DNA of 64,000 nucleotides from an uncultured bacterium (GCA_937858895.1 CALLZN010000288.1:6074-70073), one strand, 5' to 3'. Positions 13,800 through 62,027 are shown, counted from the stretch's first letter. Numbers and translations: made by a program. The notes: generated from the sequence alone by a model not told the origin.

Positions 13800-13826
13800 G
13801 GTGTGCCTCGATCCCGGGAACTCGCA

Positions 13827-13855
13827 GGATAACGGGTGGGCGACGACCCTGTCAA
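13827..13855 (-). promoter_or_regulatory. Sigma70-like promoter of the beta-helix/Kelch operon
   Basis: On the minus strand: TTGACA (13850-13855), a 17-nt spacer, then TTATCC (13827-13832). This lies about 28 nt upstream of the ATG at 13799. Confidence 0.45.
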
Positions 13856-14069
13856 CTGCCCTTCGGGGGCTGTCCGGTTCCGAGCGTCCCTCGTCACGCC
13901 GATTCAGCCTCCATGATGTCGATGGTTCGCGCGCAGCAACTAGCATTGTGCGCGCATCCGCAGCGACGACTACGTAGCGCAACCTCGACCGAACCGGCGC
14001 TCGATGCTCGGGCACCTATCGCCTTAGGAACCGCGTGCTTCATCATCGAATCAGCTCAACGGCCAGATC

Positions 14070-23058: not shown

Positions 23059-23060
23059 TC

Positions 23061-46597: not shown

Positions 46598-46735
46598 GAC
46601 CAGAGAACCTGGACATGAGTGGCACTACAGAAAGCACTGCTGGAACGGAACTGCTGTGGTGGTTCGATCGACCGTCCAAAGACTGAGACTTGAAGCTCTG
46701 CAGGCGCGGCTCGGTCATGACCGATCGATGGATTC

Positions 46736-47770
46736 ATGTTCACTCGCTACCACGTCGCGCAGCGGGCCGTGCTGTGGATCACGACAATCACGTTGTCTGC
46801 ATGCACCACAGTGTCCCTTGCCCCACTGGCAAGGAAGCCGCTCGCGCAAGTCCGCTCTTGGGCGATCCAACTGCAGGGCCTCGAGCGCTCGGGCGCTGTC
46901 GCATCGCTGCAACGAGCGACGGTCGACCTCGTCGTGATCGAAGCCACCTCGAATGTGCGTGGAAGCGAGGGGTTTGCTAGCGCCGATGTCGTCCGCAAGC
47001 TCCGATCCACACCGGGCGAGGCGCTCCCTTCGAAGCTCGTCCTCGCCTATCTCAACGTCGGACAAGCCGAAGACTACCGGGACTACTGGCGCGAGGATTG
47101 GCGTGCGCCGACCACCGAAGAGCGTGGCAGCCCCGACTTTCTCTTGAGCCTCGATCCCGAAGGCTGGCCCGGCAACTACCCGTGCAAGTTCTGGGACGAA
47201 CGCTGGAAGCGCGTCCTCTTCGGCTCTCCCACGGCCGTGCTCGACCGCCTCCTCGAAGCCGGCTTCGACGGGGTCTACCTCGACTGGGTCCTCGGCTACG
47301 AAGACGCGAGCGTCCGGGCAGTCGCGCGGGCAGACGACGTCGACCCAGCACGCGCGATGCTGGAGCTCGTGGCGGAGCTCGCCGCCTACGCGCGGGCGCG
47401 GAAGCCCGGCTTCTTGATCGTCGCGCAGAACGCCGCCTGGCTCGGTCACGAAGCGCCGGGCTTCGAAGCGCACATCGACGCGCTCGCGCAGGAAGACCTG
47501 AGCTTCCGCGGCTCGGCGACGGCCAAGTGGGACGACGATGACGCGGGCGGCATCGATACGGTCCGCGAGCGGCTCGACGAAGACGGCCGCGACCCGCTGA
47601 TCGAACGCCTCAGCGAGATCCGAGCGGGCGGCCTGCCCATCCTCACGCTCGACTATGCCGTGCGTCGCGAAGACGTGCAGCGGGCGATCGAACGCAGCCG
47701 CAGCCGAGCCTTCGTGCCGACGGTCAGCCGCACGCCTCTCGATCGCCTACCGCTGCTGCTGCCGCGATGA
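46736..47770 (+). CDS. Lipoprotein glycoside hydrolase of the Glyco_hydro_114/PelA-hydrolase type (endo-alpha-1,4-galactosaminidase-like)
   Basis: Lipobox ITLSAC. LVLAYLNVGQAEDYRDYW, FDGVYLDWVLGYED and ALAQEDLSF are typical of the TM1410/GH114-like TIM barrel. Divergent from pelA. Confidence 0.75.
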   Translation: MFTRYHVAQRAVLWITTITLSACTTVSLAPLARKPLAQVRSWAIQLQGLERSGAVASLQRATVDLVVIEATSNVRGSEGFASADVVRKLRSTPGEALPSKLVLAYLNVGQAEDYRDYWREDWRAPTTEERGSPDFLLSLDPEGWPGNYPCKFWDERWKRVLFGSPTAVLDRLLEAGFDGVYLDWVLGYEDASVRAVARADDVDPARAMLELVAELAAYARARKPGFLIVAQNAAWLGHEAPGFEAHIDALAQEDLSFRGSATAKWDDDDAGGIDTVRERLDEDGRDPLIERLSEIRAGGLPILTLDYAVRREDVQRAIERSRSRAFVPTVSRTPLDRLPLLLPR

Positions 47771-47815: not shown

Positions 47816-47891
<76 letters not shown>

Positions 47892-50610: not shown

Positions 50611-51078
50611 ATGGAGAACCCCATGAATCGTGCGAACGACAACAAGAGTGACAACATGGATGACGCACGCGACCGCCGAGCCGACTCGGTACGCTTCGGC
50701 GACCTCGACGATGACAACGATGGTCTCGCCGGTAACCAGGCCAACAAGGGCATGCTGACCGATGCCGTCGCTGACAAGCTCGGCGGCTCGCGTCGTCAAG
50801 CTGCCCGTATTCTCGACGCCGTGCTCGACAGCATCACCGACCTGCTCAATGACAAGGGGCGTGTGGCTGTCAAGGGCTTCGGCACCTTCGAACGCAAGAT
50901 CCGCAAGGGTCGCGCCTACAAGCACCCGGTCACCGGCAAGAGCATCGATGTCGCCGACAAGCTGACGATTCTCTTCAAGCCATCGAAGAACCTCATCGAC
51001 GCGACGACCTGCGAGTCGAACGACTCGAAGGGCTCGAACGGGAAGAACGACGAGCCCGCTGCGCTTTTTCGCGCCTGA
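50611..51078 (+). CDS. HU/IHF-family DNA-binding protein with N- and C-terminal low-complexity extensions
   Basis: Core LTDAVADKLGGSRRQAARILDAVLDSITDLLNDKGRVAVKGFGTFERKIRKGRAYKHPVTGKSIDVADKLTILFKPSKNL. Alternative ATG at 50623 is preceded by GGAG. Confidence 0.8.
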   Translation: MENPMNRANDNKSDNMDDARDRRADSVRFGDLDDDNDGLAGNQANKGMLTDAVADKLGGSRRQAARILDAVLDSITDLLNDKGRVAVKGFGTFERKIRKGRAYKHPVTGKSIDVADKLTILFKPSKNLIDATTCESNDSKGSNGKNDEPAALFRA

Positions 51079-51170: not shown

Positions 51171-52025
51171 ATGACCAAGACCCCATCCGTCCGCGCGGCT
51201 GCGATCCAGTGGGACATCCACCGCGGGGATGCAGCCTTCAACTTCGCGGAGGCCGAGCGCCTCATCCTCGAAGCGCACGAAGATGGCGTGGAGATCGTCG
51301 TCCTGCCCGAGCTCTGGTCGACGTCCTTTGTCGGCGACCGCGCGGTCGACTATCGCGACGACATCGCGCGGGTCGAGCAGGGCTTGGCGACCATGAGCGG
51401 CGACCTCGGCCTGGTCGCGACCGGTTCGAGCTACGAGGTCGACGCGGCGGGGTCGGTGTTCAACACTGCGACGGTCTTCGAAGACGGCAAGGTGCTCGGG
51501 CGCTACCGCAAGGCCCACCTCTTCAGCCCGCACGGCGAGGACCGCATGTTCACGGCCGGCGACGCGCCGCTCGTGGTCGACACCAAGTTCGGTCGGGCCG
51601 CGATCGCGATTTGCTACGACCTGCGCTTTCCTGAGCTCATTCGTGAGCTCGCGTTGACCGAAGCCATCATGCTGCTCGTTCCGGCACAGTGGCCCGAGCC
51701 GCGCGAACGACACTGGAACGTGCTGTCCCGCGCGCGCGCGATCGAGGAGCAGTTCTTCGTCGTCGCGAGCAATCGCTGCGGCGTCGAGCCGAGTCTCTTG
51801 TCGGACCAGGACATCAGCTACCCCGGCAACTCGTTGATCGTCAGCCCGACCGGCGAAGTCCTCGCCGAAGGCGATGGCGAAGCAAGCGTCGTCGCGGCCG
51901 ACCTCCGCCTCAAAGAAGTCTCGATCATCCGTCGCGCGATCCCGGTCTTCCGCGATCGACGCCCCGGCTTCTACGCGAAGGCTCACCGCGACTTGAGTCC
52001 GATGCGTCCAGCGCCGGAAGCGTGA
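51171..52025 (+). CDS. Carbon-nitrogen hydrolase (nitrilase superfamily, omega-amidase-like)
   Basis: VVLPELWSTSF (Glu), YRKAHLF (Lys) and AIAICYDLRFPEL (Cys) form the catalytic triad context. Confidence 0.85.
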   Translation: MTKTPSVRAAAIQWDIHRGDAAFNFAEAERLILEAHEDGVEIVVLPELWSTSFVGDRAVDYRDDIARVEQGLATMSGDLGLVATGSSYEVDAAGSVFNTATVFEDGKVLGRYRKAHLFSPHGEDRMFTAGDAPLVVDTKFGRAAIAICYDLRFPELIRELALTEAIMLLVPAQWPEPRERHWNVLSRARAIEEQFFVVASNRCGVEPSLLSDQDISYPGNSLIVSPTGEVLAEGDGEASVVAADLRLKEVSIIRRAIPVFRDRRPGFYAKAHRDLSPMRPAPEA

Positions 52026-52141
52026 GCCCATGCGTGGCGCATCTGAGCGCCATCGTTTCCAAGCAAAGCAGTGCAAGGGCCACTGCCTGCACATACGTCC
52101 CTGCTAAGCGGCGTTCTGGCGCGAGCTCCGCTTTTTACTCG

Positions 52142-52153
52142 TTTGCGTGCAAA
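52142..52153. promoter_or_regulatory. Perfect palindrome TTTGC-GT-GCAAA at the 5' end of the MarR gene (candidate operator)
   Basis: tttgcgtgcaaa read directly. It overlaps the GTG at 52147 that the ORF track uses as the start. Confidence 0.3.
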
Positions 52154-52737
52154 CTATCTGGCATCCTGCCTGGGTGCCGTCTCCCTCGTTTGATCCGCCG
52201 TCAGTCGAACAGCAGGGCGAGATCCTGCGAGCCCTCCGCCGCATCATGCGAGCGGTCGACTTGCACTCGCGCCACCTCTTCGAAGACCACGGCCTGACAG
52301 CCCCTCAGCTCGCGGCCTTGAGGGCGGTCGAGACCCACGGACCACTGTCGCCTGCTGCGATCGCCCAGCGTATCCACCTGAGTCGCCCCACCGTGACCGG
52401 CATCCTCGCGCGGCTCTGCTCCCGCGGCATGCTCGCTCGCACGCCGTGTCCGAGAGACGGACGCAGCGTCTGGATCGAACTCACCGTCTCCGGTCGACAG
52501 GCCCTCGCTGCCATGCCCCCGGTGCTTCAAGAGACCTTTGTCCACCGCTTGGCCGAGCTCGCCGATTGGGAGCGAAGCTCGATCCTCGCGACCTTGCAGC
52601 GCTTGGCATCGATGATGGACGCGTCCGATCTCGACGCCGCTCCCCTCCTCGTCAACCACGCGCCCGACACCGTGCCGCCCAACACGAACGGCACGAACGA
52701 CCAGTCCTTTCCAACGGAGCATTCCAATGCTGGGTGA
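52147..52737 (+). CDS. MarR-family transcriptional regulator (start uncertain)
   Basis: Winged-helix region LTAPQLAALRAVETHGPLSPAAIAQRIHLSRPTVTGILARLCSRGMLARTPCPRDGRSVWIELTVSGRQAL. Confidence 0.8.
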   Translation: MQTIWHPAWVPSPSFDPPSVEQQGEILRALRRIMRAVDLHSRHLFEDHGLTAPQLAALRAVETHGPLSPAAIAQRIHLSRPTVTGILARLCSRGMLARTPCPRDGRSVWIELTVSGRQALAAMPPVLQETFVHRLAELADWERSSILATLQRLASMMDASDLDAAPLLVNHAPDTVPPNTNGTNDQSFPTEHSNAG

Positions 52738-52785
52738 GATCGCGAGACCTGCACCCAGCCCCAGCTGACGAGCCCAAGGAAGCGC

Positions 52786-54447
52786 ATGAAGACCACGACC
52801 CGTACTGTTTCCCCTCGCCAAGCGGATGCCGATCATCTGGAGCGCATTTGGAAACTCGCCTACGCCGCTACTACCACCGAAGATCTAGAACAACTGTACG
52901 AGGAGTGGGCTAGCACCTACGACCATGACCACGCGAAGATCGGCTTCGTTGGTCATCGCGTCGCAGCCCACGTGCTCCAGCGTCACACGACTCGCCACGA
53001 TCTCCTGCGCGTGCTGGACGCTGGAGCTGGAACCGGCGCTGCGGGACAAGAGCTGCAGCGACTCGGTTTCGCGCACCTGACAGGTGTCGACCTCTCCCCT
53101 CACATGCTGGCCGTCGCGCGCGAGAAGGCCTGCTATGAAGAGCTCGTCGTAGCGGACATGTCCCTGCCGGTCGACGCCCTACCGGGTTTGTACTTCGACG
53201 CTGCGATCGCGGTCGGTCTCTTCTCTTATGGCCAAGCGCCAGCCGAGACCTTGGACGAGATCCTGCGCGTCGTCCGCCCTGGCGGCGTCTTCGCATTGAC
53301 CATGCGGACCGACTTCTTCGAGGAGGACCCTCTCGGCATCCGCGCCCGACTGGAGATCCTGCAGAAGCAGCGCGTCTGCCGCTTGCTCGAGGTCACCGAG
53401 CCGCTGCCCTACCTACCCGGCAAAGACCCACGAGCGCTGTTTCGCGTGTGGTGCTTTCGGGTCATCGGCCGCCGCGATGCGGAGGCCGAGGACGGTTTCG
53501 AAGAGGCCGTCCGCGAGGCATTCGAAGACGCCAACTGGGTCAAGAAGTTGGACCACTCATGGATCTGGGACTCGCGGGCTTCGCGCCTCTACGAGCGCTA
53601 CTCCCAATCCGACGGCTACTACCTGACCGACAGCGAAGAGGAGATCATCGAGCGGGAAGCGCACGAGATCGTCGCGAGCGAACGACTGATCGTAGAGCTC
53701 GGTTGCGGCTCGGCTCCCAAAATCCCCCCAATCTTGAAGGCCCCGCCCCAGATCTCGGACGAGCCGCTGCGCTACTGCCCGATCGACGTCTCGAAGGGCG
53801 CGCTCGACGCGACCACCGAAGAAGTCCGGCGGCTCTTCCCGGAGCGCCTCGAAGTCTGCCCGCAACAAGGCTTGTTCGCAGACATCCTGGACCAGATCCC
53901 AGAAGACCAACCCAAGCTGGTCTTCTTCTTCGGTTCCTCGATCGGCAATCTGGATCAAGTGCAGGACACAGTTCGCTTTCTCGAGGAAGTGCGCGCACAC
54001 TTCCAGCCTGGGGACCGCTTGGTCTTGGGCATCGACTTGCACAAAGACGCCGACGTCCTCGAACGCGCCTACAACGAAGAGGAGGCCTGTCGGGATTTCT
54101 TCGTACACATGGTGCGACGCATCAACGAGACGCTCGGGTCGGACTTCGACCCACGCGTCTTCGAACTCTCATCGACCTACGAGCCCGAAGAGGCCTACCA
54201 GGACATCCGAACACATCGCATGAATTTGCGTGTAGCACCAACAGAGCCACAACGAACATGGGTCAAGCAGCTCGGCATGGAGGTCTCGCTCGAAGCGGGA
54301 CAGCCGGTCCAAGTCGGCATCAGCCGCAAGTTCGATCCTGAGTCCATTGGCAGGCTCGGCGAGGCGGCGGGCTTCCACCTTCGACGCCAGTACTTCGATG
54401 CCCGAAGGTGGTTTTCGCTCAGTGAACTCGTCAGCCCGGATGCCTGA
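52786..54447 (+). CDS. Fusion protein: N-terminal class I SAM-dependent methyltransferase plus C-terminal EgtD-like (Methyltransf_33, amino-acid N-alpha-methyltransferase) domain
   Basis: N-terminal domain has motif I VLDAGAGTGAAG and VRPGGVFAL. C-terminal domain has VELGCGSAPK, YCPIDVSKGALD, FFGSSIGNL, GDRLVLGIDLHKD, ISRKF and WFSLSEL, colinear with EgtD as I recall it. AAGGAAG lies upstream of the ATG at 52786. Confidence 0.75.
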   Translation: MKTTTRTVSPRQADADHLERIWKLAYAATTTEDLEQLYEEWASTYDHDHAKIGFVGHRVAAHVLQRHTTRHDLLRVLDAGAGTGAAGQELQRLGFAHLTGVDLSPHMLAVAREKACYEELVVADMSLPVDALPGLYFDAAIAVGLFSYGQAPAETLDEILRVVRPGGVFALTMRTDFFEEDPLGIRARLEILQKQRVCRLLEVTEPLPYLPGKDPRALFRVWCFRVIGRRDAEAEDGFEEAVREAFEDANWVKKLDHSWIWDSRASRLYERYSQSDGYYLTDSEEEIIEREAHEIVASERLIVELGCGSAPKIPPILKAPPQISDEPLRYCPIDVSKGALDATTEEVRRLFPERLEVCPQQGLFADILDQIPEDQPKLVFFFGSSIGNLDQVQDTVRFLEEVRAHFQPGDRLVLGIDLHKDADVLERAYNEEEACRDFFVHMVRRINETLGSDFDPRVFELSSTYEPEEAYQDIRTHRMNLRVAPTEPQRTWVKQLGMEVSLEAGQPVQVGISRKFDPESIGRLGEAAGFHLRRQYFDARRWFSLSELVSPDA

Positions 54448-55192
54448 CGCTTCGATTCGCTTCGAATCGGTCTCCAAGACCTACCGCTCTTCGAAGAGCG
54501 GGGCGACGACCGCAGCCGTAGTAGGTCTCGACCTCGAGGTCGCAAGCGGCGAGGTGCTCTGCCTCGTCGGCACGAGCGGCTGCGGCAAGACCACGACCCT
54601 GCGCATGATCAATCGCTTGGTCGAGCCCAGCAAAGGGCGGGTCCTGGTCGGCGAGCGCGACATCCAAGAGCTCGACCCCATCCGCTTGCGCCGCAGAATG
54701 GGCTACGTGCTCCAGCGAGGCGGCCTCTTCCCACATCTGAGCGTGGCCGAGAACATCGGCTTGGTCGCCAAGCTCGAGGGCTGGACGCGGGAGCGCATCC
54801 GCGCGAGGGTCCTCGAGCTGCTCGAACTGGTTCACTTGGGTCCGGAGCTCGCAGAGCGCTTTCCTCGACAACTCTCCGGCGGCCAACGCCAACGCATCGG
54901 CGTGGCCCGCGCGCTCATGCTCGACCCACCGATCATACTATTGGACGAGCCCTTCGGCGCCCTGGACCCGATCACGAAGCGAGAGCTGCACGGCGAGTTC
55001 CACGAACTGCGCCGCCTGCTCCCGCGCACGATGGTGCTGGTCAGCCACGACATGAACGAAGCGCGCACGTTGGCGGACCGCATCGGCGTGATGTCGGAGG
55101 GCAGGCTGCTCCAGATAGGGACCTGGGACGACCTCGTCGGGCAGCCCGCGAACGACTTCGTCGCGAGCTTCGTCGGAGGCGATCATGGCTGA
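54440..55192 (+). CDS. ABC transporter ATP-binding protein (glycine betaine/OpuC-type)
   Basis: Walker A GTSGCGKTT, signature LSGGQRQRIGVARAL, Walker B ILLDEPFGALD. The ATG at 54440 overlaps the methyltransferase stop by 8 nt. Confidence 0.9.
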   Translation: MPDASIRFESVSKTYRSSKSGATTAAVVGLDLEVASGEVLCLVGTSGCGKTTTLRMINRLVEPSKGRVLVGERDIQELDPIRLRRRMGYVLQRGGLFPHLSVAENIGLVAKLEGWTRERIRARVLELLELVHLGPELAERFPRQLSGGQRQRIGVARALMLDPPIILLDEPFGALDPITKRELHGEFHELRRLLPRTMVLVSHDMNEARTLADRIGVMSEGRLLQIGTWDDLVGQPANDFVASFVGGDHG

Positions 55193-56780
55193 GCCCCTGG
55201 GTCTGCGCCGCGGCATCTGGATTGGGTTACTCGGCTTCATCGCAACAGCGGCTGCGCTCCGAGCCGAGCCGACTGTCGGCCAAGACCCTGCCCGCAAGCT
55301 GGTCATCGGCAGCAAGAACTTCGCGGAGTCGCGCCTCCTCGCCGAGATGCTGAAGATCTTGGTCGAGGACCGGAGCGACTTCGAAGTCGAGCATCGCGCC
55401 AACCTCGGCGGGACCTTGGTCTGCATGGAAGCGCTCCGTGCAGGAGCAATCGACGTCTACCCGGAGTACACAGGAACGGGCTGGACGGTCATCCTCGAAG
55501 AGAAGCGGCGCGCGAGCGACCCCATGCGCACCTACTTCGAGGTCGCCAAGGCCTACCGCGAGCGCTGGGACATCGAGTGGCTCTCTCCATTCGGCCTCGA
55601 CAACACCTACGTGTTGGCGATCAGCGAAGCAAAGGCAGCGTCGCTCGGCATCACCACGATCTCGGACCTGGTCGCCCATGGGCCTTCGTTGACCGCGGGC
55701 TTCAGCATCGAGTTCATGGAGCGCCCCGACGGCTGGCCCGGCCTGCGCGAGTTCTACTCCCTGCAGCTCGGGTCCGCGCGCGGACTCGAGCATGGCCTGG
55801 CCTACGAAGCGCTCGCTGCCGGCGAAGTCGACCTCGTCGACGCCTACGCGACCGACGGCAAGCTGCTGCGCTACCCGCTCCGGAGGCTGAAAGACGACCG
55901 CGGCTTCTTCCCGCCCTACCAAGCCGCGCCGATCGTGCGAGGGGCCGTGCTGCGAGACCATCCGGAGCTGCGCTCCATGCTCGATGGCCTCGCCTACCGC
56001 ATCGATGACGCTTCGATGACGAAGCTCAACCATGCGGTCGAAGTCGAGCAGCGCGGCTTCCGAGAGGTCGCCATGGGCTTCCTCCGGGACGAAGGGCTCA
56101 CCCGGAACACCGCTGTCGAAGCGCCGGCCCAGAAGCGCACTGGCTTTTGGCGCTTCTTCTTGGACCGCTGGCGCGTGACCCTGCAGCTGGTCCTCGAACA
56201 CATCTGGTTGACAGCCATCGCGGTCGCCCTGGCGGCCCTCGTTGCACTTCCCCTCGGGATCTGGATCCAAGGGCGCCCCATGGCCGCGAGGATCTCCCTG
56301 GCTATCGCTGGTGTCATCCAGACCATTCCGAGCCTCGCGCTGCTGGCCCTGGCCATCGCCGTCCCAGGTCTCGGGCTCTCGACGCGGTCGGCCATCGCCG
56401 CGCTCTTCCTCTATTCGCTCCTCCCGATCCTGCGCAACACCCACGCGGGCCTAGGCGCCGTCGATGCCGAGCTCGTGGACGCCGCCAAGGCCATCGGCCT
56501 GACCAAGGGCCAAGTGCTGCGACAGATCAAGCTGCCGATGGCGATGAGCACGATCTTGGCCGGCCTGCGAACCGCGACCGTCATCTCGATCGGCGTCGCC
56601 ACGCTCGCCGCCTTCATCGGAGCAGGCGGCTTGGGGCAGCCGATCGTGACCGGGCTCTACTTGAACGACCCGGACTTGGTGCTGTCCGGAGCGCTGCCCG
56701 CCGGCTTTCTCGCCCTCGCGATGGACTTTGTCCTCGGCCGCCTCGAGCGCCGCCTCGTGCCACGCGGCCTGCGCGCTTGA
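55185..56780 (+). CDS. Fused substrate-binding (OpuAC/OpuCC-type quaternary-amine) and permease ABC transporter protein
   Basis: N-terminal half has LVIGSKNFAESRLLAEMLK and IDVYPEYTGTGW (betaine-binding-protein type). C-terminal half is a 5-6 TM permease with an EAA-like region. GGAGG precedes the ATG at 55185, which overlaps the ATPase gene by 8 nt. Confidence 0.85.
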   Translation: MAEPLGLRRGIWIGLLGFIATAAALRAEPTVGQDPARKLVIGSKNFAESRLLAEMLKILVEDRSDFEVEHRANLGGTLVCMEALRAGAIDVYPEYTGTGWTVILEEKRRASDPMRTYFEVAKAYRERWDIEWLSPFGLDNTYVLAISEAKAASLGITTISDLVAHGPSLTAGFSIEFMERPDGWPGLREFYSLQLGSARGLEHGLAYEALAAGEVDLVDAYATDGKLLRYPLRRLKDDRGFFPPYQAAPIVRGAVLRDHPELRSMLDGLAYRIDDASMTKLNHAVEVEQRGFREVAMGFLRDEGLTRNTAVEAPAQKRTGFWRFFLDRWRVTLQLVLEHIWLTAIAVALAALVALPLGIWIQGRPMAARISLAIAGVIQTIPSLALLALAIAVPGLGLSTRSAIAALFLYSLLPILRNTHAGLGAVDAELVDAAKAIGLTKGQVLRQIKLPMAMSTILAGLRTATVISIGVATLAAFIGAGGLGQPIVTGLYLNDPDLVLSGALPAGFLALAMDFVLGRLERRLVPRGLRA

Positions 56781-56795
56781 GCGACGGTCACTTCG

Positions 56796-58025
56796 TCAAT
56801 CGAAGCGGACCTGCTCCTTGCGCGTCAACTGGAGTTCGGGACGCCCGCGGTAACGAAAGATGGGCCCCGTGACGACGAGCTTCTTTCCCTTCCAAGTCAA
56901 GAGGTCGCCGAAGCGCGCGACGGCGTGGCGCGGCACGAAGAGGGTCAAAGAAGAGCGCGGCTTGTCACCCAGTTCGAGGTTGAAGTGGCCACCGCTGCGC
57001 GTCGCCTCGACGCGGCGCACGGTGCCGCTGACCTCGACTTCTTGCAGCAGGTGCCGCGCGAGCGCGGCGCCGTCGTCGGCCTGGATACGTGGTAGCGACG
57101 GCTTCGCGCCTTCGGTCGCGAGGACCTGCGGCGACGGCGCTGCCGGCAAGCGCGTCGGCTCGCCCTCCCACGCGAAGTCGACGACGACCGCAGCATGGTC
57201 CGAGGCATCGTTCTCGTCGCGCGCGAAGCGCGCCTGCGCCACGTCGAGTGCGCCCTCGAAGAGCACGTAGTCGATCTGCTGCTTCTGCCCTGCGTATTCG
57301 AAGCTCCACGCTTCTTCTGCCGGCACCTTTTCGGTCGCGTTCTTGAAGCGCGCGAAGAGCGGCGCGAGCGACGCTGAGTCCACCGTGTCGTTGAGATCTC
57401 CGAGCAAGACGAAGGGGCTCGTCTGGCCACCGGCGCGCAGCTCGTCGAGGACATCGACGATGCCGCGGGCCTCGGCGCTGCGCCAGCCGACGCCTTGCAC
57501 ATCGTCGCCGAACGTGCGCTTCGACTTGAGGTGCGTGGGCGCGACCAGGAGGCGCTTGCCCGGGTTCGGTTCGAGCTCATGGACGACGGGGTCCCGCGAA
57601 AAACGGCGACCTCCCTCGAGGACACGGTGACGGTGGCTCGTCGACCGCCGCAGCGGCACGCGCGAGAGCAAGGCGCAGTCGATGCCACGCATGTCGTTGC
57701 TCGACAGCACCTCGACGATGGCGTAGGGCTTGGCGAGGAGGCGGTTCAGCGCTTCGACGACCTCGCGGTTCTCGACCTCGCAGAGGGCCAACACGTCGGC
57801 ATCGATCGAGTCGATGGTCTTGGCGAGAACGCGGCGCTCGGCGAGGCTCTTGGGCGAAGTCTCTTCGTCGGGGCGATACGGATCGTCGTGGTTGTCGAAG
57901 AGATTCTCGACGTTGTAGCAGGCCACGCGCAGCGACTGCGCCGCGAGCATGCCCGGCAACAGGAGCACCGAAACCGCTGACACGAGGGAAAGGAAGCCGC
58001 GAAAAGGAGAGCGCATCGCGGCCAC
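56796..58025 (-). CDS. Secreted endonuclease/exonuclease/phosphatase (EEP) family protein with a C-terminal OB-like domain
   Basis: Signal peptide. LRVACYNVENLFD, DADVLALCEVEN, GDLND, SDHAAVVVDF. C-terminal VSGTVRRVEATRSGGHFNLELGD. Confidence 0.8.
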   Translation of the reverse strand: MAAMRSPFRGFLSLVSAVSVLLLPGMLAAQSLRVACYNVENLFDNHDDPYRPDEETSPKSLAERRVLAKTIDSIDADVLALCEVENREVVEALNRLLAKPYAIVEVLSSNDMRGIDCALLSRVPLRRSTSHRHRVLEGGRRFSRDPVVHELEPNPGKRLLVAPTHLKSKRTFGDDVQGVGWRSAEARGIVDVLDELRAGGQTSPFVLLGDLNDTVDSASLAPLFARFKNATEKVPAEEAWSFEYAGQKQQIDYVLFEGALDVAQARFARDENDASDHAAVVVDFAWEGEPTRLPAAPSPQVLATEGAKPSLPRIQADDGAALARHLLQEVEVSGTVRRVEATRSGGHFNLELGDKPRSSLTLFVPRHAVARFGDLLTWKGKKLVVTGPIFRYRGRPELQLTRKEQVRFD

Positions 58026-58929: not shown

Positions 58930-59442
58930 TCAGTCGAACTTGCGCTTGCGGATCTTGCCGACGATCTTCGCGGCCGAATGCGCCTTCTTGTCGCCGCACG
59001 CGAGGAACTTGACGCCGTTCGCCTTCATCGCCGCGCGCTCGGTGAGGGCGCGCTCGTTGTGGTCCGTGCCCTTGGCGTAGACACTCGGCGACAGCGCCGA
59101 GATCAGGGAAGCCCCGTCCTCGTCCGCGACTTCGCAGACGTAGTCGACGCTCTCGAGGGCCGCGAGCACCTCCATGCGCTCGACGCTCTCCTGGATCGGA
59201 AAGCCCTTGCCCTTCTGCTTCGCCGCGATCTTGTCGTCGAAGACCCCGACGACGAGGAAGTCGCCGCGCGACTTCGCGTCCTCGAGGAAGCGCGCATGCC
59301 CGACGTGCAGCAAGTCGAAGCAACCCGTCGTCAGCACGATCGATTTGCCCTGAGACTTGAGGCCGTCCACGATTGCCCCGAGGTTGCGCTGGGACTTGAT
59401 GATCTTGTCCTTGAACTTTTTTCGCGAAGCGGTCAGAGCCAT
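58930..59442 (-). CDS. Stand-alone cytidylyl/adenylyltransferase-fold protein resembling HldE domain II (heptose-1-phosphate adenylyltransferase-like)
   Basis: TTGCFDLLHVGHARFLEDAKSRGDFLVVGV, compared with TNGCFDLLHPGHLDYLEKARAYGDVLIVGV in the neighbouring HldE. Lys-rich C-terminus KIVGKIRKRKFD. ATG at 59442. Confidence 0.7.
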   Translation of the reverse strand: MALTASRKKFKDKIIKSQRNLGAIVDGLKSQGKSIVLTTGCFDLLHVGHARFLEDAKSRGDFLVVGVFDDKIAAKQKGKGFPIQESVERMEVLAALESVDYVCEVADEDGASLISALSPSVYAKGTDHNERALTERAAMKANGVKFLACGDKKAHSAAKIVGKIRKRKFD

Positions 59443-59565
59443 CGTTACCTCGGCGCCGGGGATGAAGCGGTTCCCTCTTCCCATCGACCAGGGCGGCCTT
59501 GCGACTTGAGCGCAAAGCTCGATGCCATGCCCGCGACAGGGCCAGCGCCGGGGGTAGCGCCAGGC

Positions 59566-61050
59566 TCAGCGCGCCATCGACTTGCGGATGCGCTCGAGCA
59601 GTGCCGTCGTCGAATAGCCTTGGAGCAGCGGTACGAGCACAACCTGCCCGCCATGGCTCTCGACCCACGAGGCGCCGACGACCCCCTTGTCACGCCAGTC
59701 TTCGCCCTTGACGAGGATGTGCGGCGTGATGCGCTCGATCAGGCTCTCGGGCGTGTCGCTGCCGAAGGGCACGAGGTAGTCGACGACCTCGAGGCCTGCC
59801 AGCAAGGCGAGGCGGTCCGCGAGCGGATTGATCGGTCGATCGTCGCCCTTGCCCTGGCGGCGGATCGAAGCATCGTCGTTGACCCCGACGATCAAAACGT
59901 CGCCGTAGGCGCGGGCCTTCTCGAGGTAGTCGAGGTGGCCTGGATGCAGCAGGTCGAAGCAGCCGTTCGTGAAGACGACCCGGCGCTTCTCGCTGCGCAA
60001 CTCGACGAGCAACTTGGCGAGCGACGCGTCATCGAGGACCTTCCCGGTCTCGTGACCACCGAGGGCCGCGAGCAGCTCGTCTCGCGTGACTGCTGCGGTG
60101 CCGAAGCGCCCGACGACGATGCCAGCCGCATGGTTGGCGAGGCGCAGCGCCGAAGGCAACTCGAAGCCGGCCGCGAGCGCGAAGGCCAAGATCGCGACGA
60201 CCGTGTCACCAGCCCCCGTGACGTCGTAGACCGCCCTCGCTTCGGTCGGGAAGATGCCGGTCTCACCCTCCTTGGTCCGGAAGTAAATCCCGTCCGGCCC
60301 GAGCGTGATGACGACGCTGTCGAGGCCGCAGCTCTCGGCGAGCCCCTTGGCGACTCGTTCGAGCGCGGCCTCGCCATCGATGCTGACACCGCTCGCCACT
60401 TCGGCCTCGAGGCGGTTGGGCGTCACGAGGGTCGCGCCGCGATACTTGCGGTAGTCGTTGCCCTTGGGATCGACGAGGACCGGGATGCCGCGCTCGCGCC
60501 CACGATCGATCGCACGCCGCAGGCAGGCTTCGTCGAGGACGCCTTTGCCATAGTCCGACAGGATCATGGCGTCGAAGTCACCGAGGCGCTCGTCGAGGAA
60601 GGCAAAGATCTTCGCCTGCGCCTCGGCCGAAGCGCGCTGCTTGGTCTCTTCGTCGACGCGCAGCACTTGGTGTGTGCGCGAGACGTAGCGCGTCTTGACC
60701 GTCGTCAAGCGCTGCTCGTCGTGCACGAGGCCATCGACGCCGATCTTGGCCTCGACGAGCCGCTTGGCGAGGCGGTCGGCGCCCTCGTCGTTGCCGACGA
60801 GGCCGAGGCAGACGGCGCTTCCGCCCACGCTCACGACGTTGGCGGCGACGTTGCAAGCTCCTCCCAGTCGATAGCTCGCGAAGGACGACTCGAAGACGAG
60901 GACCGGCGCCTCGGGCGAGACGCGCCGCGCCTCCCCCTCGACGTAGCGATCCAGAATGAGGTCGCCGACGACGAGGACGCGGGGATGCTGGGCGTGAGAG
61001 AGTTGTTCGTAGAGCGAGAGCATCGAGGGTTTCAGCGTGTTCGTTCTCAT
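59566..61050 (-). CDS. hldE: Bifunctional D-beta-D-heptose 7-phosphate kinase / D-beta-D-heptose 1-phosphate adenylyltransferase
   Basis: N-terminal ribokinase-like domain (VLVVGDLILDRYVEGEARRVSPEAPVLV, DVTGAGDTVVA). C-terminal TNGCFDLLHPGH. The ATG at 61050 forms an ATGA overlap with the upstream gene. Confidence 0.9.
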   Translation of the reverse strand: MRTNTLKPSMLSLYEQLSHAQHPRVLVVGDLILDRYVEGEARRVSPEAPVLVFESSFASYRLGGACNVAANVVSVGGSAVCLGLVGNDEGADRLAKRLVEAKIGVDGLVHDEQRLTTVKTRYVSRTHQVLRVDEETKQRASAEAQAKIFAFLDERLGDFDAMILSDYGKGVLDEACLRRAIDRGRERGIPVLVDPKGNDYRKYRGATLVTPNRLEAEVASGVSIDGEAALERVAKGLAESCGLDSVVITLGPDGIYFRTKEGETGIFPTEARAVYDVTGAGDTVVAILAFALAAGFELPSALRLANHAAGIVVGRFGTAAVTRDELLAALGGHETGKVLDDASLAKLLVELRSEKRRVVFTNGCFDLLHPGHLDYLEKARAYGDVLIVGVNDDASIRRQGKGDDRPINPLADRLALLAGLEVVDYLVPFGSDTPESLIERITPHILVKGEDWRDKGVVGASWVESHGGQVVLVPLLQGYSTTALLERIRKSMAR

Positions 61051-62027
61051 TGTCGGCGCGCGGGCTCGGCGCTCGCAAGGCTCGGCGCGTCGGCTTGTGG
61101 CGCGGGGCGCGTGCGGTAGCGGTCGTGCACCCAAAAGTACTGGTCCGGAGCGCGCAAGATCAGCTCTTCGATGCTGGCCTGCAGGCGCCGCGTCGGCACA
61201 GCTAGGTCCTTGGTCCCCGCTTCGACCGCGAAGATGTCACTGAGTTCGAGGCGGAAGCGATAGCGCCGCCCGACGCGGTAGCAGGCCATGGCGACGATGG
61301 ATGCGGCGCTCATCTGGGCGAGGCGCGCCGGGCTCCGGTCGCAAGAAGCGAGCTTGCCGAAGACCTCGACGAAGATGCCGCGCATGCGCTGGTTCTGGTC
61401 GGGCAGCAGGCCGATCGCGCAGTTCGCGCGCAGGGCAGCGACCAAAGAGCGCACACCACCGCGACGCGGCACGATGCTGACACCGAGCTGGGAACGACAG
61501 CGCACGAGCCAGGCTTGGAGGTAGGGATTGCCGAGCGGGCGCGCGATGACGACGGCGCCGTCGAAGTGCAGCCCGAGCTGGAAACCCGCGACCTCCCAGG
61601 ACCCCAAGTGAGGCGTGCAGAAGATCGGCGCACCGACGAGGCCGAGCTCGGCGCGCCGACGCTCGAGCTGGTCGAGGAAGGCTCGGTCATCGACTCGGTC
61701 TCGGTGCTTGCCGCTGCGGATCATGCGCTCGATGCGCGCGACGTCACCCAAGACCATGAAGCTCGCGCCGCAGGCGCGGCGCGCGAGCGCGAAGAGTTCT
61801 GCCTCGGAGCGCTTCCCCGCGAAGGCCAGAGCCAAGTTGGCGATGGCGATCTTGCGCCGCTTCTTGCTGCAGCGCAGGTAGAGCCGACCGAGCGCATCGA
61901 GGGCCGGGTAGACCACGAACTCGGGCAGCCAAGCCATGCCGAAGAGCAGGGCGCGCGCGAGCGCGTACGTGGCCGCGTCGAGGACTCGCGAGCGCTGCTT
62001 CTTGGAGGACTTGTGGCGCGCGGACAT
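61047..62027 (-). CDS. Lipid A biosynthesis (Kdo)2-lipid IVA acyltransferase family protein (LpxL/HtrB-like)
   Basis: N-terminal anchor, length and a position next to lpxK. Sequence fits Lip_A_acyltrans-type proteins (CTPHLGSWE region). The family call is moderate. Confidence 0.7.
   Translation of the reverse strand: MSARHKSSKKQRSRVLDAATYALARALLFGMAWLPEFVVYPALDALGRLYLRCSKKRRKIAIANLALAFAGKRSEAELFALARRACGASFMVLGDVARIERMIRSGKHRDRVDDRAFLDQLERRRAELGLVGAPIFCTPHLGSWEVAGFQLGLHFDGAVVIARPLGNPYLQAWLVRCRSQLGVSIVPRRGGVRSLVAALRANCAIGLLPDQNQRMRGIFVEVFGKLASCDRSPARLAQMSAASIVAMACYRVGRRYRFRLELSDIFAVEAGTKDLAVPTRRLQASIEELILRAPDQYFWVHDRYRTRPAPQADAPSLASAEPARRQ

What the first reader, a model, noticed from the sequence alone, without database searches (positions are those of the whole stretch)
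52147..56780. Double methyltransferase (class I MTase fused to an EgtD-like domain) translationally coupled to a betaine-type ABC transporter, behind a MarR gene
What the sequence shows:
- The 553-aa protein joins a generic SAM methyltransferase (VLDAGAGTG) to a domain colinear with EgtD, the histidine N-alpha-trimethyltransferase of ergothioneine synthesis (GSSIGN, GIDLHKD, SRKF motifs).
- No egtB/egtC/egtE-like genes are nearby.
- Its stop overlaps by 8 nt the ATG of an OpuC-type ATPase. That gene in turn overlaps a fused quaternary-amine binding protein plus permease (YPEYTGTGW).

Context: EgtD homologs make amino-acid betaines such as hercynine. Fused binding-protein/permease ABC systems of this type include the ergothioneine importer EgtUV. 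A biosynthetic methyltransferase coupled to such a transporter, and the MTase-MTase fusion itself, are not arrangements I recognise as described. The product could be a novel amino-acid betaine that is exported or recycled.
Basis: partly seen in the sequence, partly recalled or inferred. Interest (0 to 1): 0.62.

Follow-up and report, generated by a model that had tools for sequence, protein, structure and literature searches.

The report
Uncharacterised betaine synthase-plus-importer gene cassette
A conserved bacterial operon pairs a two-headed methyltransferase (one head like the histidine-betaine enzyme EgtD but with an altered substrate pocket, the other like the orphan human enzyme METTL27) with a betaine-type uptake pump; it probably makes and recaptures an as yet unidentified amino-acid betaine.

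Summary
Four + strand genes lie at 52147-56780:
- a MarR regulator;
- a 553-aa fusion of a class I methyltransferase and a Methyltransf_33 (EgtD-like) domain;
- a 250-aa ABC ATPase without CBS domains;
- a fused OpuAC binding domain plus permease.

Both downstream junctions overlap by 8 nt.

The fusion is a compact family found in Planctomycetota, Acidobacteriota, Gemmatimonadota and Myxococcota. PGAP names it "L-histidine N(alpha)-methyltransferase". In 18 of 19 assessable loci the same ATPase follows it, with the binding-domain/permease gene wherever the contig is long enough. An orthologous MarR sits directly upstream in about 40% of loci.

It is not EgtD. It scores 196 bits against a cutoff of 290.9. 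All 120 members keep the amine and carboxylate ligands (N166, Y56, Y206, S284) but replace the specificity residues (E282 to G, M252 to L/F, T213 variable, Y39 to W, F47 to Y).

The N domain is a homologue of METTL27/WBSCR27, whose substrate is unknown.

The binding domain has a four-Tyr cage and a Lys/Thr/Arg carboxylate clamp like A. fulgidus ProX. It lacks the ergothioneine-importer hallmarks.

Best reading: synthesis of a non-hercynine amino-acid betaine plus its uptake. The product is unknown. I found no published description.

The parts
52106..52133 (+). Imperfect inverted repeat (11-nt arms, 6-nt spacer) upstream of marR. Possibly an operator. Weak evidence.
   Evidence: 82% complementary. 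No sigma-70 consensus promoter was found in 51900-57100. Function is inferred only.
52147..52737 (+). MarR-family transcriptional regulator (196 aa from a GTG; the true start is uncertain).
   Evidence: Pfam MarR_2 E 9.8e-17 and MarR E 9.9e-16. Orthologues (phmmer E 1e-25 to 1e-50) lie directly upstream of the fusion gene in L086, L098, L099, L101, L104, L105 and L110.
52729..52759 (+). Perfect 8-bp inverted repeat (15-nt loop) spanning the marR stop and the intergenic gap. Role unknown.
52776..52782 (+). AAGGAAG ribosome-binding site, 3 nt before the methyltransferase ATG.
   Evidence: Read from the sequence.
52786..53481 (+). N-terminal domain of the fusion (residues 1-232). It is a METTL27/WBSCR27-like class I SAM methyltransferase.
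   Evidence: Pfam Methyltransf_25/11/12. PDB 7qcb METTL27: E 1.9e-24 with the single sequence, 1.1e-33 with the family profile; the next hit is at 1.8e-12. Shared motifs: YxxWAxxYDxD, LDxxxGTG, VGxxSxGQxP and LTxRT. 50 residues of this domain are invariant in 53 family members.
53497..54447 (+). C-terminal domain of the fusion (residues 238-553). EgtD-like Methyltransf_33 domain with altered specificity residues.
   Evidence: Pfam PF10017 E 3.6e-67. TIGR03438 scores 196.3 bits, below the cutoff of 290.9. Foldseek to EgtD: target-normalised TM 0.84-0.89, 28-29% identity. Residues at EgtD positions 39/47/163/166/206/252/282/284 are W/Y/S/N/Y/L/G/S.
54440..55192 (+). ABC transporter ATP-binding subunit (250 aa) of the ProV/OpuC family, without C-terminal CBS domains. 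Its ATG overlaps the methyltransferase stop by 8 nt.
   Evidence: Pfam finds ABC_tran only. TIGR01186 proV scores 280 bits against a cutoff of 326.6 and aligns only to model positions 5-232 of 363. Overlap read. Orthologues follow the fusion gene in 18 of 19 loci.
55185..55274 (+). N-terminal hydrophobic signal/anchor segment of the binding-domain/permease fusion (residues 1-30).
   Evidence: Sequence MAEPLGLRRGIWIGLLGFIATAAALRAEP. No lipobox cysteine. Role inferred.
55290..56102 (+). Substrate-binding domain (residues 36-306), OpuAC family. It has a four-Tyr cage (Y95, Y142, Y221, Y245) closed by N140, and a carboxylate clamp (K44, T98, R180).
   Evidence: Pfam OpuAC E 2.2e-57. PDB hits: OpuBC-derived sensors, EgtUC, Lmo1422 and AfProX. 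The cage and clamp residues are invariant in the seven SBD-permease sequences (window included); across the ten they hold except position 221, which is Trp in two (L098, L100), and position 138 is L or F.
56193..56780 (+). Permease domain (residues 337-531) of the same polypeptide.
   Evidence: Pfam BPD_transp_1 E 7.9e-22, residues 355-524. TIGR03416 and ProW permease similarity.

Best explanation
The cassette is a biosynthesis-plus-uptake module for an amino-acid betaine that is neither hercynine nor ergothioneine.

Proposed mechanism:
- The 553-aa enzyme carries two catalytically intact SAM-dependent methyltransferase domains.
- The EgtD-like C domain binds the alpha-carboxylate and alpha-amine of an L-amino acid as EgtD does, and methylates the alpha-nitrogen up to the trimethylammonium state.
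- Its side-chain pocket has lost the imidazole-recognition residues and is larger and more hydrophobic. The substrate is therefore most likely an aromatic or ring-modified amino acid rather than plain histidine.
- The METTL27-like N domain adds a further methyl group. Either it performs the slow first N-methylation (a division of labour, as in phosphoethanolamine N-methyltransferases and fused GSMT-SDMT), or it methylates a second atom on the side chain.
- The co-translated ABC system is an importer. Its fused binding domain has a quaternary-ammonium cage and a carboxylate clamp, so it would recapture leaked product or scavenge the same betaine from the environment.
- In a subset of lineages, including this one, a MarR repressor controls the operon.

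Shown: domain identities, residue patterns, gene overlaps, conservation of linkage.
Inferred: N-alpha methylation chemistry, substrate class, direction and ligand of transport, MarR control.
Unknown: the actual product and the acceptor of the N domain.
For: 1. Both domains look catalytically intact. The SAM motifs and 109 invariant residues span both halves in 53 members from several phyla. The AlphaFold model is confident as one body (pLDDT 90, pTM 0.82).
2. The C domain has the EgtD fold. It keeps N166, G161, Y56, Y206 and S284, which are the amine and carboxylate ligands in EgtD crystal structures (PMC8593015; mapping).
3. At EgtD positions 39, 47, 163 and 282, all 120 fusion members carry W, Y, S and G; position 252 is L or F in 118 of 120 (M in two) and position 213 is variable. 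The roughly 120 nearest stand-alone EgtD-likes carry Y, F, T/S/N, T, M and E. Positions 252 and 282 are the two residues whose mutation yields the tryptophan-binding EgtD variant of PDB 4pip (title).
4. The fusion scores below the EgtD equivalog cutoff, 196 against 290.9. Bona fide EgtDs in L099 and L106 score 321 and 341.
5. The fusion is followed by the ATPase in 18 of 19 assessable loci, and by the binding-domain/permease gene in all 15 loci long enough to show it. These loci come from Vicinamibacterales, Kofleriaceae, Planctomycetota and Gemmatimonadota. In this window the junctions overlap by 8 nt.
6. The binding domain keeps the cage and clamp equivalent to EgtU F293/N339/Y341/Y419/Y443 and K242/T296/R379, with nearly identical spacing.
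7. The same transporter type sits next to a bona fide EgtD in L106. In L099 a bona fide EgtD is inserted into the cassette. This ties the transporter subfamily to amino-acid betaine synthases in general.
Against: - There are no biochemical data for any member.
- The binding domain's hallmarks (four Tyr; Phe at the EgtU-G244 position; L/F at the AfProX-F107 position) are those the EgtU paper assigns to glycine-betaine-specific AfProX-type proteins. That would fit a small betaine better than an aromatic one.
- The acceptor of the N domain is unknown. Its stand-alone homologues (L001-L039) are not linked to EgtD-like or OpuAC genes, so its role need not concern betaines.
- The ATPase lacks the CBS domains of the OpuA/OpuC/ProV-type ATPases (established knowledge, not shown here), and no osmotic regulator is linked. 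A classical compatible-solute role is therefore not indicated.
- One family member (L087) has no transporter nearby.
- Pocket inferences rest on sequence alignment to EgtD, not on a ligand-bound structure.
Confidence: 0.55

Rival explanations
1. Hercynine/ergothioneine reading, following the database annotation. The fusion would be simply an EgtD (histidine N-alpha-trimethyltransferase) with an accessory domain. The transporter would be an EgtUV-type ergothioneine or hercynine importer.
For: - PGAP and JGI name family members L-histidine N(alpha)-methyltransferase.
- EgtD is the best PDB hit.
- EgtUC is among the top PDB hits for the binding domain.
- A bona fide EgtD sits inside the cassette in L099, and one replaces the fusion in L106.
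Against: - TIGR03438 scores 196 bits, below the cutoff of 290.9.
- The residues that position or adjoin the imidazole in EgtD, E282 and T213, are replaced in all 120 members.
- No egtB/C/E or eanB was found among the 44 other large ORFs scanned across the 64-kb window.
- The binding domain lacks the invariant EgtU G244 (here F46) and the F293/Y337 switch (here Y95 and L138). A G244F substitution costs EgtU about 100-fold in affinity.
- In L099 a canonical EgtD coexists with the fusion, which argues against redundancy.
Confidence: 0.12
2. Small-betaine reading. The two-domain enzyme would be a non-canonical de novo synthase of glycine betaine or another small betaine (alanine or proline betaine). 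It would be functionally analogous to fused GSMT-SDMT, paired with a ProX-like glycine-betaine importer for osmoprotection.
For: - The binding domain has the four-Tyr cage, the Phe at the EgtU-G244 position and the K/T/R clamp that characterise AfProX. AfProX is also the best PDB match for its N-terminal lobe (E 1.2e-15; criteria).
- Enzymes with two methyltransferase domains that split successive N-methylations are known. Phosphoethanolamine N-methyltransferases appear among the fold hits. Fused GSMT-SDMT of Actinopolyspora is from my own knowledge.
- The carriers are soil and sediment bacteria exposed to desiccation.
Against: - The side-chain pocket is opened (E282 to G) rather than filled. 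Y206, which pi-stacks on a pyridine ring occupying the imidazole subsite in an EgtD-inhibitor complex, is invariant.
- The same binding-domain type accompanies a bona fide histidine-specific EgtD in L106, so these hallmarks do not exclude larger betaines.
- The N domain shows no specific similarity to GSMT or SDMT.
- The ATPase lacks CBS domains.
Confidence: 0.13
3. Import-then-modify reading. The transporter would bring in a preformed quaternary or partly methylated compound (for example hercynine or another plant or fungal betaine). The fusion enzyme would then methylate the imported molecule further, rather than building a betaine from a free amino acid.
For: - Binding-protein-dependent ABC systems are importers (established knowledge).
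- In L099 a canonical EgtD precedes the transporter together with the fusion. That is compatible with the fusion acting downstream of hercynine.
- The altered channel residues Y39W, F47Y and T163S lie where N-alpha substituents of EgtD inhibitors sit. They could suit an already methylated amine.
Against: - The C domain keeps N166, which hydrogen-bonds a protonated alpha-amine.
- A fully trimethylated amine has no further site for an EgtD-type reaction.
- No catabolic genes are linked in any locus.
Confidence: 0.1
4. Unrelated-neighbours reading. The methyltransferase would act on a macromolecule (RNA or protein, as once suspected for METTL27), and the transporter would be an ordinary osmoprotectant importer that happens to lie downstream.
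For: - The authors of the METTL27 structure considered nucleic acid the most likely substrate (PMC9240639).
- Stand-alone N-domain homologues have unrelated neighbours such as TruD.
Against: - Linkage holds in 18 of 19 loci across four phyla, with overlapping stop and start codons.
- The C domain keeps the small-molecule amino-acid ligands of EgtD.
- The METTL27 study found no RNA or protein target.
Confidence: 0.04

Closest known systems
EgtD (L-histidine N-alpha-trimethyltransferase, Methyltransf_33, TIGR03438; PDB 4pim, 4uy7, 7scf)
   Same: Same fold (target-normalised TM 0.84-0.89) and the same SAM motifs. The amine and carboxylate ligands N166, G161, Y56, Y206 and S284 are the same. It probably performs the same chemistry, processive N-alpha methylation of an amino acid.
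   Different: - It scores below the equivalog cutoff.
- The specificity positions differ in the whole family: E282G and Y39W, F47Y, T163S in all 120; M252L/F in 118 of 120; T213 variable.
- It is fused to an extra methyltransferase domain.
- It is not linked to egtB/C/E.
- It is linked instead to an ABC importer.
Engineered EgtD M252V/E282A (PDB 4pip) and fungal aromatic amino-acid betaine synthases (Vit et al. 2015, cited in PMC9103826)
   Same: The same two positions (252 and 282) carry small or hydrophobic residues. The engineered variant binds tryptophan (entry title).
   Different: The natural family has Gly and Leu/Phe rather than Ala and Val, plus further changes. Its specificity is untested. 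My recollection that the double mutant switches specificity about 10^7-fold is from memory, not from a tool.
METTL27 / WBSCR27 (human and mouse orphan class I methyltransferase, PDB 7qcb)
   Same: It is by far the closest solved relative of the N domain (profile E 1e-33, against 1.8e-12 for the next hit). The N-terminal YDxWAxxYDxD helix motif and the SxGQxP loop after strand 4 are shared.
   Different: METTL27 is a stand-alone eukaryotic protein of unknown substrate. Here the domain is covalently joined to an amino-acid methyltransferase.
EgtUV ergothioneine ABC importer (S. pneumoniae SPD_1642-1643; bioRxiv 10.1101/2022.05.02.490363)
   Same: A two-gene ABC importer with the binding domain fused to the permease and a separate ATPase. 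It is in the same OpuAC subfamily (E about 1e-57). The cage and the K/T/R clamp are conserved with matching spacing.
   Different: - The domain order is reversed. Here the binding domain is N-terminal. In SpEgtU the binding-domain residues are numbered about 233-506.
- EgtU-invariant G244 is Phe here, F293 is Tyr, Y337 is Leu/Phe, I243 is Asn and T274 is Gly.
Archaeoglobus fulgidus ProX (glycine betaine / proline betaine binding protein, PDB 1sw1)
   Same: The four-Tyr cage, the Lys/Thr/Arg carboxylate contacts and the Phe at the position of EgtU G244. It is the best PDB match for the N-terminal lobe (criteria).
   Different: ProX is a separate binding protein, whereas here the domain is fused to the permease. 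The position of AfProX F107 is Leu in this window. The ligand is untested.
Two-domain N-methyltransferases that split successive methylations (plant and nematode phosphoethanolamine N-methyltransferases, PDB 5wp5, 4krg; fused GSMT-SDMT of Actinopolyspora halophila)
   Same: Two SAM methyltransferase domains in one polypeptide that lead to a quaternary ammonium product. This is a possible working analogy for the division of labour.
   Different: There is no specific homology beyond the class I fold (11% identity, rmsd 18 A over both domains). The second domain here belongs to a different family (Methyltransf_33).

Membership tests
EgtD (TIGR03438 equivalog) | Methyltransf_33 domain and fold | tested here: met
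   Pfam PF10017 E 3.6e-67. Foldseek target-normalised TM 0.84-0.89 to 4pim, 4uy7 and 7scf.
EgtD (TIGR03438 equivalog) | Score at or above the curated equivalog cutoff (290.9 bits) | tested here: not met
   196.3 bits. Control EgtDs in L099 and L106 score 321.5 and 340.7.
EgtD (TIGR03438 equivalog) | Alpha-amine and alpha-carboxylate ligands N166, Y56, Y206, S284 | tested here: met
   They are N388, Y278, Y429 and S513 in the window protein. All four are the same in all 120 fusion members tabulated and are invariant in the 53-sequence alignment. Their roles are taken from PMC8593015.
EgtD (TIGR03438 equivalog) | Residues that position or adjoin the imidazole: E282 and T213 (with M252) | tested here: not met
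   G511 is present in all 120 fusion members. Position 213 is variable or deleted. Position 252 is L or F (M in 2 of 120).
EgtD (TIGR03438 equivalog) | Genomic association with egtB/egtC/egtE or eanB | tested here: not met
   None was found among the 48 large ORFs scanned in the 64-kb window, cassette genes included, nor in the +/-8 kb flanks of seven relatives. The rest of each genome could not be examined.
EgtD (TIGR03438 equivalog) | Histidine to hercynine activity | not testable with these tools
   Needs an enzyme assay.
EgtUV ergothioneine importer | Binding domain fused to the permease, plus a separate ATPase | tested here: met
   OpuAC and BPD_transp_1 in one 531-aa protein, with a separate 250-aa ATPase. 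The domain order is reversed relative to SpEgtU.
EgtUV ergothioneine importer | Invariant Gly at SpEgtU position 244 | tested here: not met
   F46 is found in all ten SBD-permease sequences compared, the window included. Lmo1422 shows K-L-G-A-E where the window has K-N-F-A-E. A G244F substitution lowers affinity about 100-fold.
EgtUV ergothioneine importer | F293/Y337 switch relative to AfProX Y63/F107 | tested here: not met
   Y95, with L138 (F in some orthologues).
EgtUV ergothioneine importer | Quaternary-amine cage and carboxylate clamp (N339, Y341, Y419, Y443; K242, T296, R379) | tested here: met
   The residues are N140, Y142, Y221, Y245, K44, T98 and R180. Their spacing matches EgtU to within one residue.
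AfProX-type betaine-binding protein | Four-tyrosine cage | tested here: met
   Y95, Y142, Y221 and Y245 are invariant in the seven sequences; across the ten, position 221 is Trp in two (L098, L100).
AfProX-type betaine-binding protein | High-affinity binding of glycine betaine or proline betaine | not testable with these tools
   Needs ITC or DSF with the isolated domain.
OpuA/OpuC/ProU osmoregulated ABC importers | ATPase with C-terminal tandem CBS domains | tested here: not met
   The ATPase is 250 aa with ABC_tran only. TIGR01186 aligns only to model positions 5-232 of 363 and scores below the cutoff.
METTL27/WBSCR27-like class I methyltransferases (N domain) | Specific sequence similarity, including the N-terminal substrate-lid motif | tested here: met
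   E 1.9e-24 with the single sequence and 1.1e-33 with the profile, well separated from the next hits. The family has no defined substrate, so functional membership cannot be tested.
GSMT/SDMT glycine betaine synthases | Homology of either domain to GSMT or SDMT | tested here: not met
   No GSMT/SDMT model appears among the 25 best of 31 NCBIfam hits listed. Glycine N-methyltransferase appears only as a weak generic class I hit (E about 6e-6).

The most novel reading that the evidence does not exclude
The cassette makes and recaptures a natural product not yet described: a doubly modified aromatic amino-acid betaine. Examples would be a ring-N-methylated histidine betaine, or an O- or N-methylated tyrosine or tryptophan betaine. 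Soil Planctomycetota, Acidobacteriota, Gemmatimonadota and Myxococcota would use it as a stress protectant. The N domain would then reveal the substrate class, a small amino-acid-derived molecule, of the orphan METTL27/WBSCR27 family.
Probability: 0.3. Interest if true: 0.78.

Novelty: new variant of a known kind. Interest (0 to 1): 0.62.

Why it matters
- A gene family now annotated automatically as EgtD in several abundant soil phyla is probably misnamed. It may encode a new betaine pathway, which affects inferences about which environmental bacteria can make ergothioneine or hercynine.
- The operon supplies an enzyme, a matched high-affinity binding domain and a likely regulator. The product could therefore be identified with simple assays, and the binding domain reused as a sensor scaffold, as was done with its OpuBC relatives.
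- The fusion gives the first genomic-context clue for the METTL27/WBSCR27 family. The substrate of the human member, which lies in the Williams-Beuren deletion region, has resisted identification.
- The recurrence of EgtD-family enzymes next to this transporter type (L099, L106) suggests that "amino-acid betaine synthase plus dedicated importer" is a general module that has not been described.

Tried and rejected
- **Genome-contig scan.** It used the whole-protein alignment and chose generic SAM-motif patterns. It returned only stand-alone N-domain homologues (L001-L080), not fusion orthologues. I reused these loci to show that stand-alone homologues are not linked to EgtD-like or OpuAC genes.
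- **Exact look-up of the window protein.** It is not on record. The closest protein is P0001 (95% identity), whose cluster includes a Planctomycetota protein.
- **Neighbourhoods of stand-alone N-domain homologues.** The neighbours are TruD, AIPR and tandem paralogues, which are not informative.
- **Literature searches** for the fusion, for Methyltransf_33 and for EgtD-like betaine synthases with transporters. No description was found.
- **Rfam scan of the whole window.** No riboswitch; only a tRNA.
- **Consensus scan.** No sigma-70 promoter. The terminator-like hits inside the genes are not above the shuffled expectation.
- **tblastn of the phage-contig variant P0127 against annotated phages.** No match.
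- **EgtUV-type ergothioneine importer.** Considered and rejected because three defining residues are not met.
- **Classical osmoregulated OpuA/OpuC.** Rejected because there are no CBS domains.
- **Export of the product.** Rejected because the architecture is that of a binding-protein-dependent importer.
- **Residue-level inspection of the AlphaFold model.** Not possible, because the coordinates are not exposed.

Full report
**1. What is in the sequence**

Four genes lie head to tail on the + strand:
- a MarR-family regulator, 52147-52737;
- a 553-aa methyltransferase, 52786-54447;
- an ABC ATPase whose real start is the ATG at 54440 (the ORF lister extends it to a TTG at 54347), ending at 55192;
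- a 531-aa protein, 55185-56780.

The methyltransferase stop (54445-54447) and the ATPase ATG (54440) overlap by 8 nt. So do the ATPase stop (55190-55192) and the next ATG (55185). An AAGGAAG ribosome-binding site sits 3 nt before the methyltransferase ATG.

Pfam assigns:
- Methyltransf_25/11 to residues 76-170 of the fusion;
- Methyltransf_33 to residues 239-547 (E 3.6e-67);
- ABC_tran only to the ATPase;
- OpuAC (residues 38-301) followed by BPD_transp_1 (residues 355-524) to the last protein.

None of the 48 large ORFs I scanned in the 64-kb window, cassette genes included, carries an EgtB, EgtC, EgtE or EanB-type domain. The surroundings are a Pel exopolysaccharide cluster upstream and LPS-core/lipid A genes downstream. 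The closest protein in the databases is 95% identical, and its cluster includes a protein from a Planctomycetota bacterium.

**2. The fusion is a conserved family and the operon is conserved**

A database search returned more than 120 full-length relatives, 47-64% identical apart from one at 95% (P0001). They come from Vicinamibacterales and other Acidobacteriota, Planctomycetota (including Gemmataceae), Gemmatimonadota and Kofleriaceae. PGAP names them "L-histidine N(alpha)-methyltransferase". In a library clustered at 50% identity only about three full-length representatives exist. After them the scores fall to stand-alone EgtD-likes and stand-alone N-domain homologues. The family is therefore compact.

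Both halves are strongly conserved, with 109 invariant residues in 53 sequences.

Gene neighbourhoods came from exact look-ups and from a metagenome scan with C-domain patterns:
- The ATPase follows the fusion in 18 of 19 assessable loci.
- The binding-domain/permease gene follows in every locus long enough to show it.
- The one exception is L087.
- An orthologous MarR (phmmer E 1e-25 to 1e-50) lies directly upstream in seven other loci, on either strand, which is about 40% of those assessable.

**3. The C domain is EgtD-like but is not EgtD**

An AlphaFold model built from the family alignment is confident (pLDDT 90, pTM 0.82). Its C half superposes on EgtD with a target-normalised TM-score of 0.84-0.89.

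Against the NCBIfam EgtD equivalog model the protein scores 196 bits, below the cutoff of 290.9. Two bona fide EgtDs found in related loci score 321 and 341.

I mapped the residues that contact histidine in M. tuberculosis EgtD crystal structures onto the family. The residue roles come from PMC8593015. The mapping uses the HMMER alignment and a 250-sequence alignment.

| EgtD position | Role | Canonical EgtD-likes (about 120 nearest) | Fusion members (all 120) |
|---|---|---|---|
| N166, G161 | alpha-amine ligands | kept | kept |
| Y56, Y206, S284 | carboxylate ligands | kept | kept |
| 282 | next to the imidazole subsite | E | G |
| 213 | positions a water that H-bonds the imidazole | T | variable or deleted |
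| 252 | side-chain pocket | M | L or F (M in 2 of 120) |
| 39 | channel | Y | W |
| 47 | channel | F | Y |
| 163 | channel | T/S/N | S |

Positions 252 and 282 are the two residues changed in the engineered EgtD variant crystallised with tryptophan (PDB 4pip, title). Positions 39, 47 and 163 line the channel where N-alpha substituents of inhibitors sit.

I infer that the domain still methylates the alpha-nitrogen of an amino acid, but not that of plain histidine. The pocket is larger and more hydrophobic, and the ring-stacking Y206 is kept.

**4. The N domain is a METTL27 homologue**

It is not a generic class I methyltransferase. The only close solved relative is mouse/human METTL27 (WBSCR27):
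- E 1.9e-24 with the single sequence;
- E 1.1e-33 with the family profile;
- the next hit is at 1.8e-12.

The N-terminal YxxWAxxYDxD motif and the SxGQxP loop after strand 4 are shared. METTL27's substrate is unknown. A dedicated study found no RNA or protein target and did not exclude a small molecule (PMC9240639).

Stand-alone bacterial homologues are 30-45% identical and occur in Dehalococcoidia, Alphaproteobacteria and SAR324. They are not linked to EgtD-like or OpuAC genes. The fusion is thus the only informative context for this domain.

**5. The transporter**

The ATPase belongs to the ProV/OpuC family but is only 250 aa. It aligns only to positions 5-232 of the 363-position proV model, so it lacks the CBS domains of that model's C-terminal part.

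The binding domain is N-terminal to the permease. This is the reverse of S. pneumoniae EgtU, whose binding-domain residues are numbered about 233-506.

Its ligand-contact residues are the same in all ten sequences compared, window included, apart from position 221, which is Trp in two. They match EgtU in spacing to within one residue:

| This protein | EgtU equivalent |
|---|---|
| K44 | K242 |
| Y95 | F293 |
| T98 | T296 |
| N140 | N339 |
| Y142 | Y341 |
| E176 | E375 |
| R180 | R379 |
| Y221 | Y419 |
| Y245 | Y443 |

The quaternary-ammonium cage and the Lys/Thr/Arg carboxylate clamp are therefore complete. This predicts a ligand with both a trimethylammonium group and a carboxylate, that is, a betaine rather than choline.

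The features that the EgtU paper gives as defining ergothioneine specificity are absent:
- the invariant G244 is F46 here (a G244F substitution costs EgtU about 100-fold in affinity);
- F293 is Tyr;
- Y337 is Leu or Phe.

These are the states found in A. fulgidus ProX, which is also the best PDB match for the N-terminal lobe.

**6. Two informative variants elsewhere**

- In L099 a bona fide EgtD (canonical signature, 321 bits) is inserted between the fusion and the ATPase.
- In L106 a bona fide EgtD (341 bits) replaces the fusion in an EgtD-ATPase-binding-domain/permease cassette. Its binding domain has the same Phe/Tyr states.

Neither locus shows egtB/C/E genes nearby. This ties the transporter subfamily to EgtD-family betaine synthases in general. 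It also shows that the AfProX-like hallmarks do not exclude an aromatic betaine such as hercynine as ligand.

**7. How it most likely works**

I commit to the following model, with confidence about 0.55. The enzyme converts an amino acid other than plain histidine, most likely aromatic or ring-modified, to its N-alpha-trimethyl betaine in the C domain.

The METTL27-like domain supplies an additional methylation, in one of two ways:
- it performs the rate-limiting first N-methylation, a division of labour known from phosphoethanolamine N-methyltransferases, which appear among the fold hits;
- or it methylates a second site on the side chain.

The ABC importer then recaptures or scavenges the product. 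MarR controls the operon in some lineages.

- Shown: domain identities, residue patterns, overlaps and linkage.
- Inferred: the chemistry, the ligand and the physiological role.

Four rivals remain:
- the annotated EgtD/ergothioneine reading (0.12), contradicted by the failed membership tests;
- a small-betaine or glycine-betaine synthase (0.13), favoured by the ProX-like cage but not by the opened pocket or by L106;
- import of a precursor followed by modification (0.10);
- unrelated neighbours (0.04), contradicted by the conservation.

**8. Novelty and verdict**

Betaine synthesis genes next to betaine importers, and enzymes with two methyltransferase domains, are known principles. The following were not found in the searchable literature:
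- the METTL27-like plus EgtD-like architecture;
- its altered specificity signature;
- its tight coupling to a ProX-like binding-domain/permease importer.

I class it as a new variant of a known kind, with interest 0.62. It is a clean lead that can be tested directly. It corrects a widespread annotation, and it offers the first contextual clue for an orphan human methyltransferase family. The product is still unknown.

Noticed in passing
L089:5235-6245: A phage-like contig carries a stand-alone EgtD-like gene (P0127, 40% identical to the window's C domain). Its other genes include a portal/Mu-F protein, two ParB_N proteins and a PAPS reductase. The gene has the variant signature of the fusion family at most positions (W39, L58, D60, F252, G282) but keeps the canonical F47 and T163, and scores below the EgtD cutoff (176 bits). 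No counterpart exists in the annotated phage collection.
   Followed up: partly
L099:5426-6436: A bona fide EgtD (TIGR03438 321 bits, canonical Y39/F47/T213/E282 signature) is inserted between the fusion methyltransferase and the ABC ATPase in one metagenomic cassette. That cassette also has the orthologous MarR upstream.
   Followed up: partly
L106:3516-7254: A separate three-gene cassette consists of a bona fide EgtD (341 bits), an ATPase and a binding-domain/permease fusion. There is no fusion methyltransferase and no egtB/C/E within about 3.5 kb. It suggests hercynine itself may be made and imported as an end product in some bacteria.
   Followed up: partly
L090:253-2174: A stand-alone homologue of the N domain (P0128, 45% identical) overlaps the stop of an upstream M20-family peptidase gene by 4 nt. 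An M28/M20 peptidase also lies divergently upstream of the fusion in L081.
   Followed up: no
P0130 (723 aa): A protein made of three tandem METTL27-like domains. Its origin is unknown.
   Followed up: no
window 34298-47770: A Pel-type exopolysaccharide cluster: PelG (E 3e-120), a DUF3492 plus GT1 PelF-like protein, a 1242-aa TPR protein (PelB-like), three large ORFs without Pfam hits, and a GH114 PelA-like hydrolase.
   Followed up: partly
window 7598-14015: A stretch of lower G+C (0.56-0.62, against about 0.66 elsewhere) holds three large minus-strand ORFs of 606, 764 and 882 aa. Only the middle one has a Pfam hit (Kelch/beta-propeller). It may be horizontally acquired.
   Followed up: no
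window 50611-51078: An HU-family DNA-binding protein with an N-terminal extension of about 44 residues, rich in Asp and Asn, before the Bac_DNA_binding domain.
   Followed up: no
window 47816-47891: A single tRNA-Ala(CGC) gene on the minus strand, between the Pel cluster and a 503-aa ORF without Pfam hits. It is the only Rfam match in the window.
   Followed up: yes
window 58930-61134: A stand-alone cytidylyltransferase-like gene (184 aa) lies next to a bifunctional PfkB kinase plus cytidylyltransferase (HldE-like, 522 aa). The transferase module appears to be duplicated.
   Followed up: no
window 21952-24218: Two adjacent radical SAM genes (368 and 419 aa) of unknown function lie next to a beta-carbonic anhydrase.
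   Followed up: no
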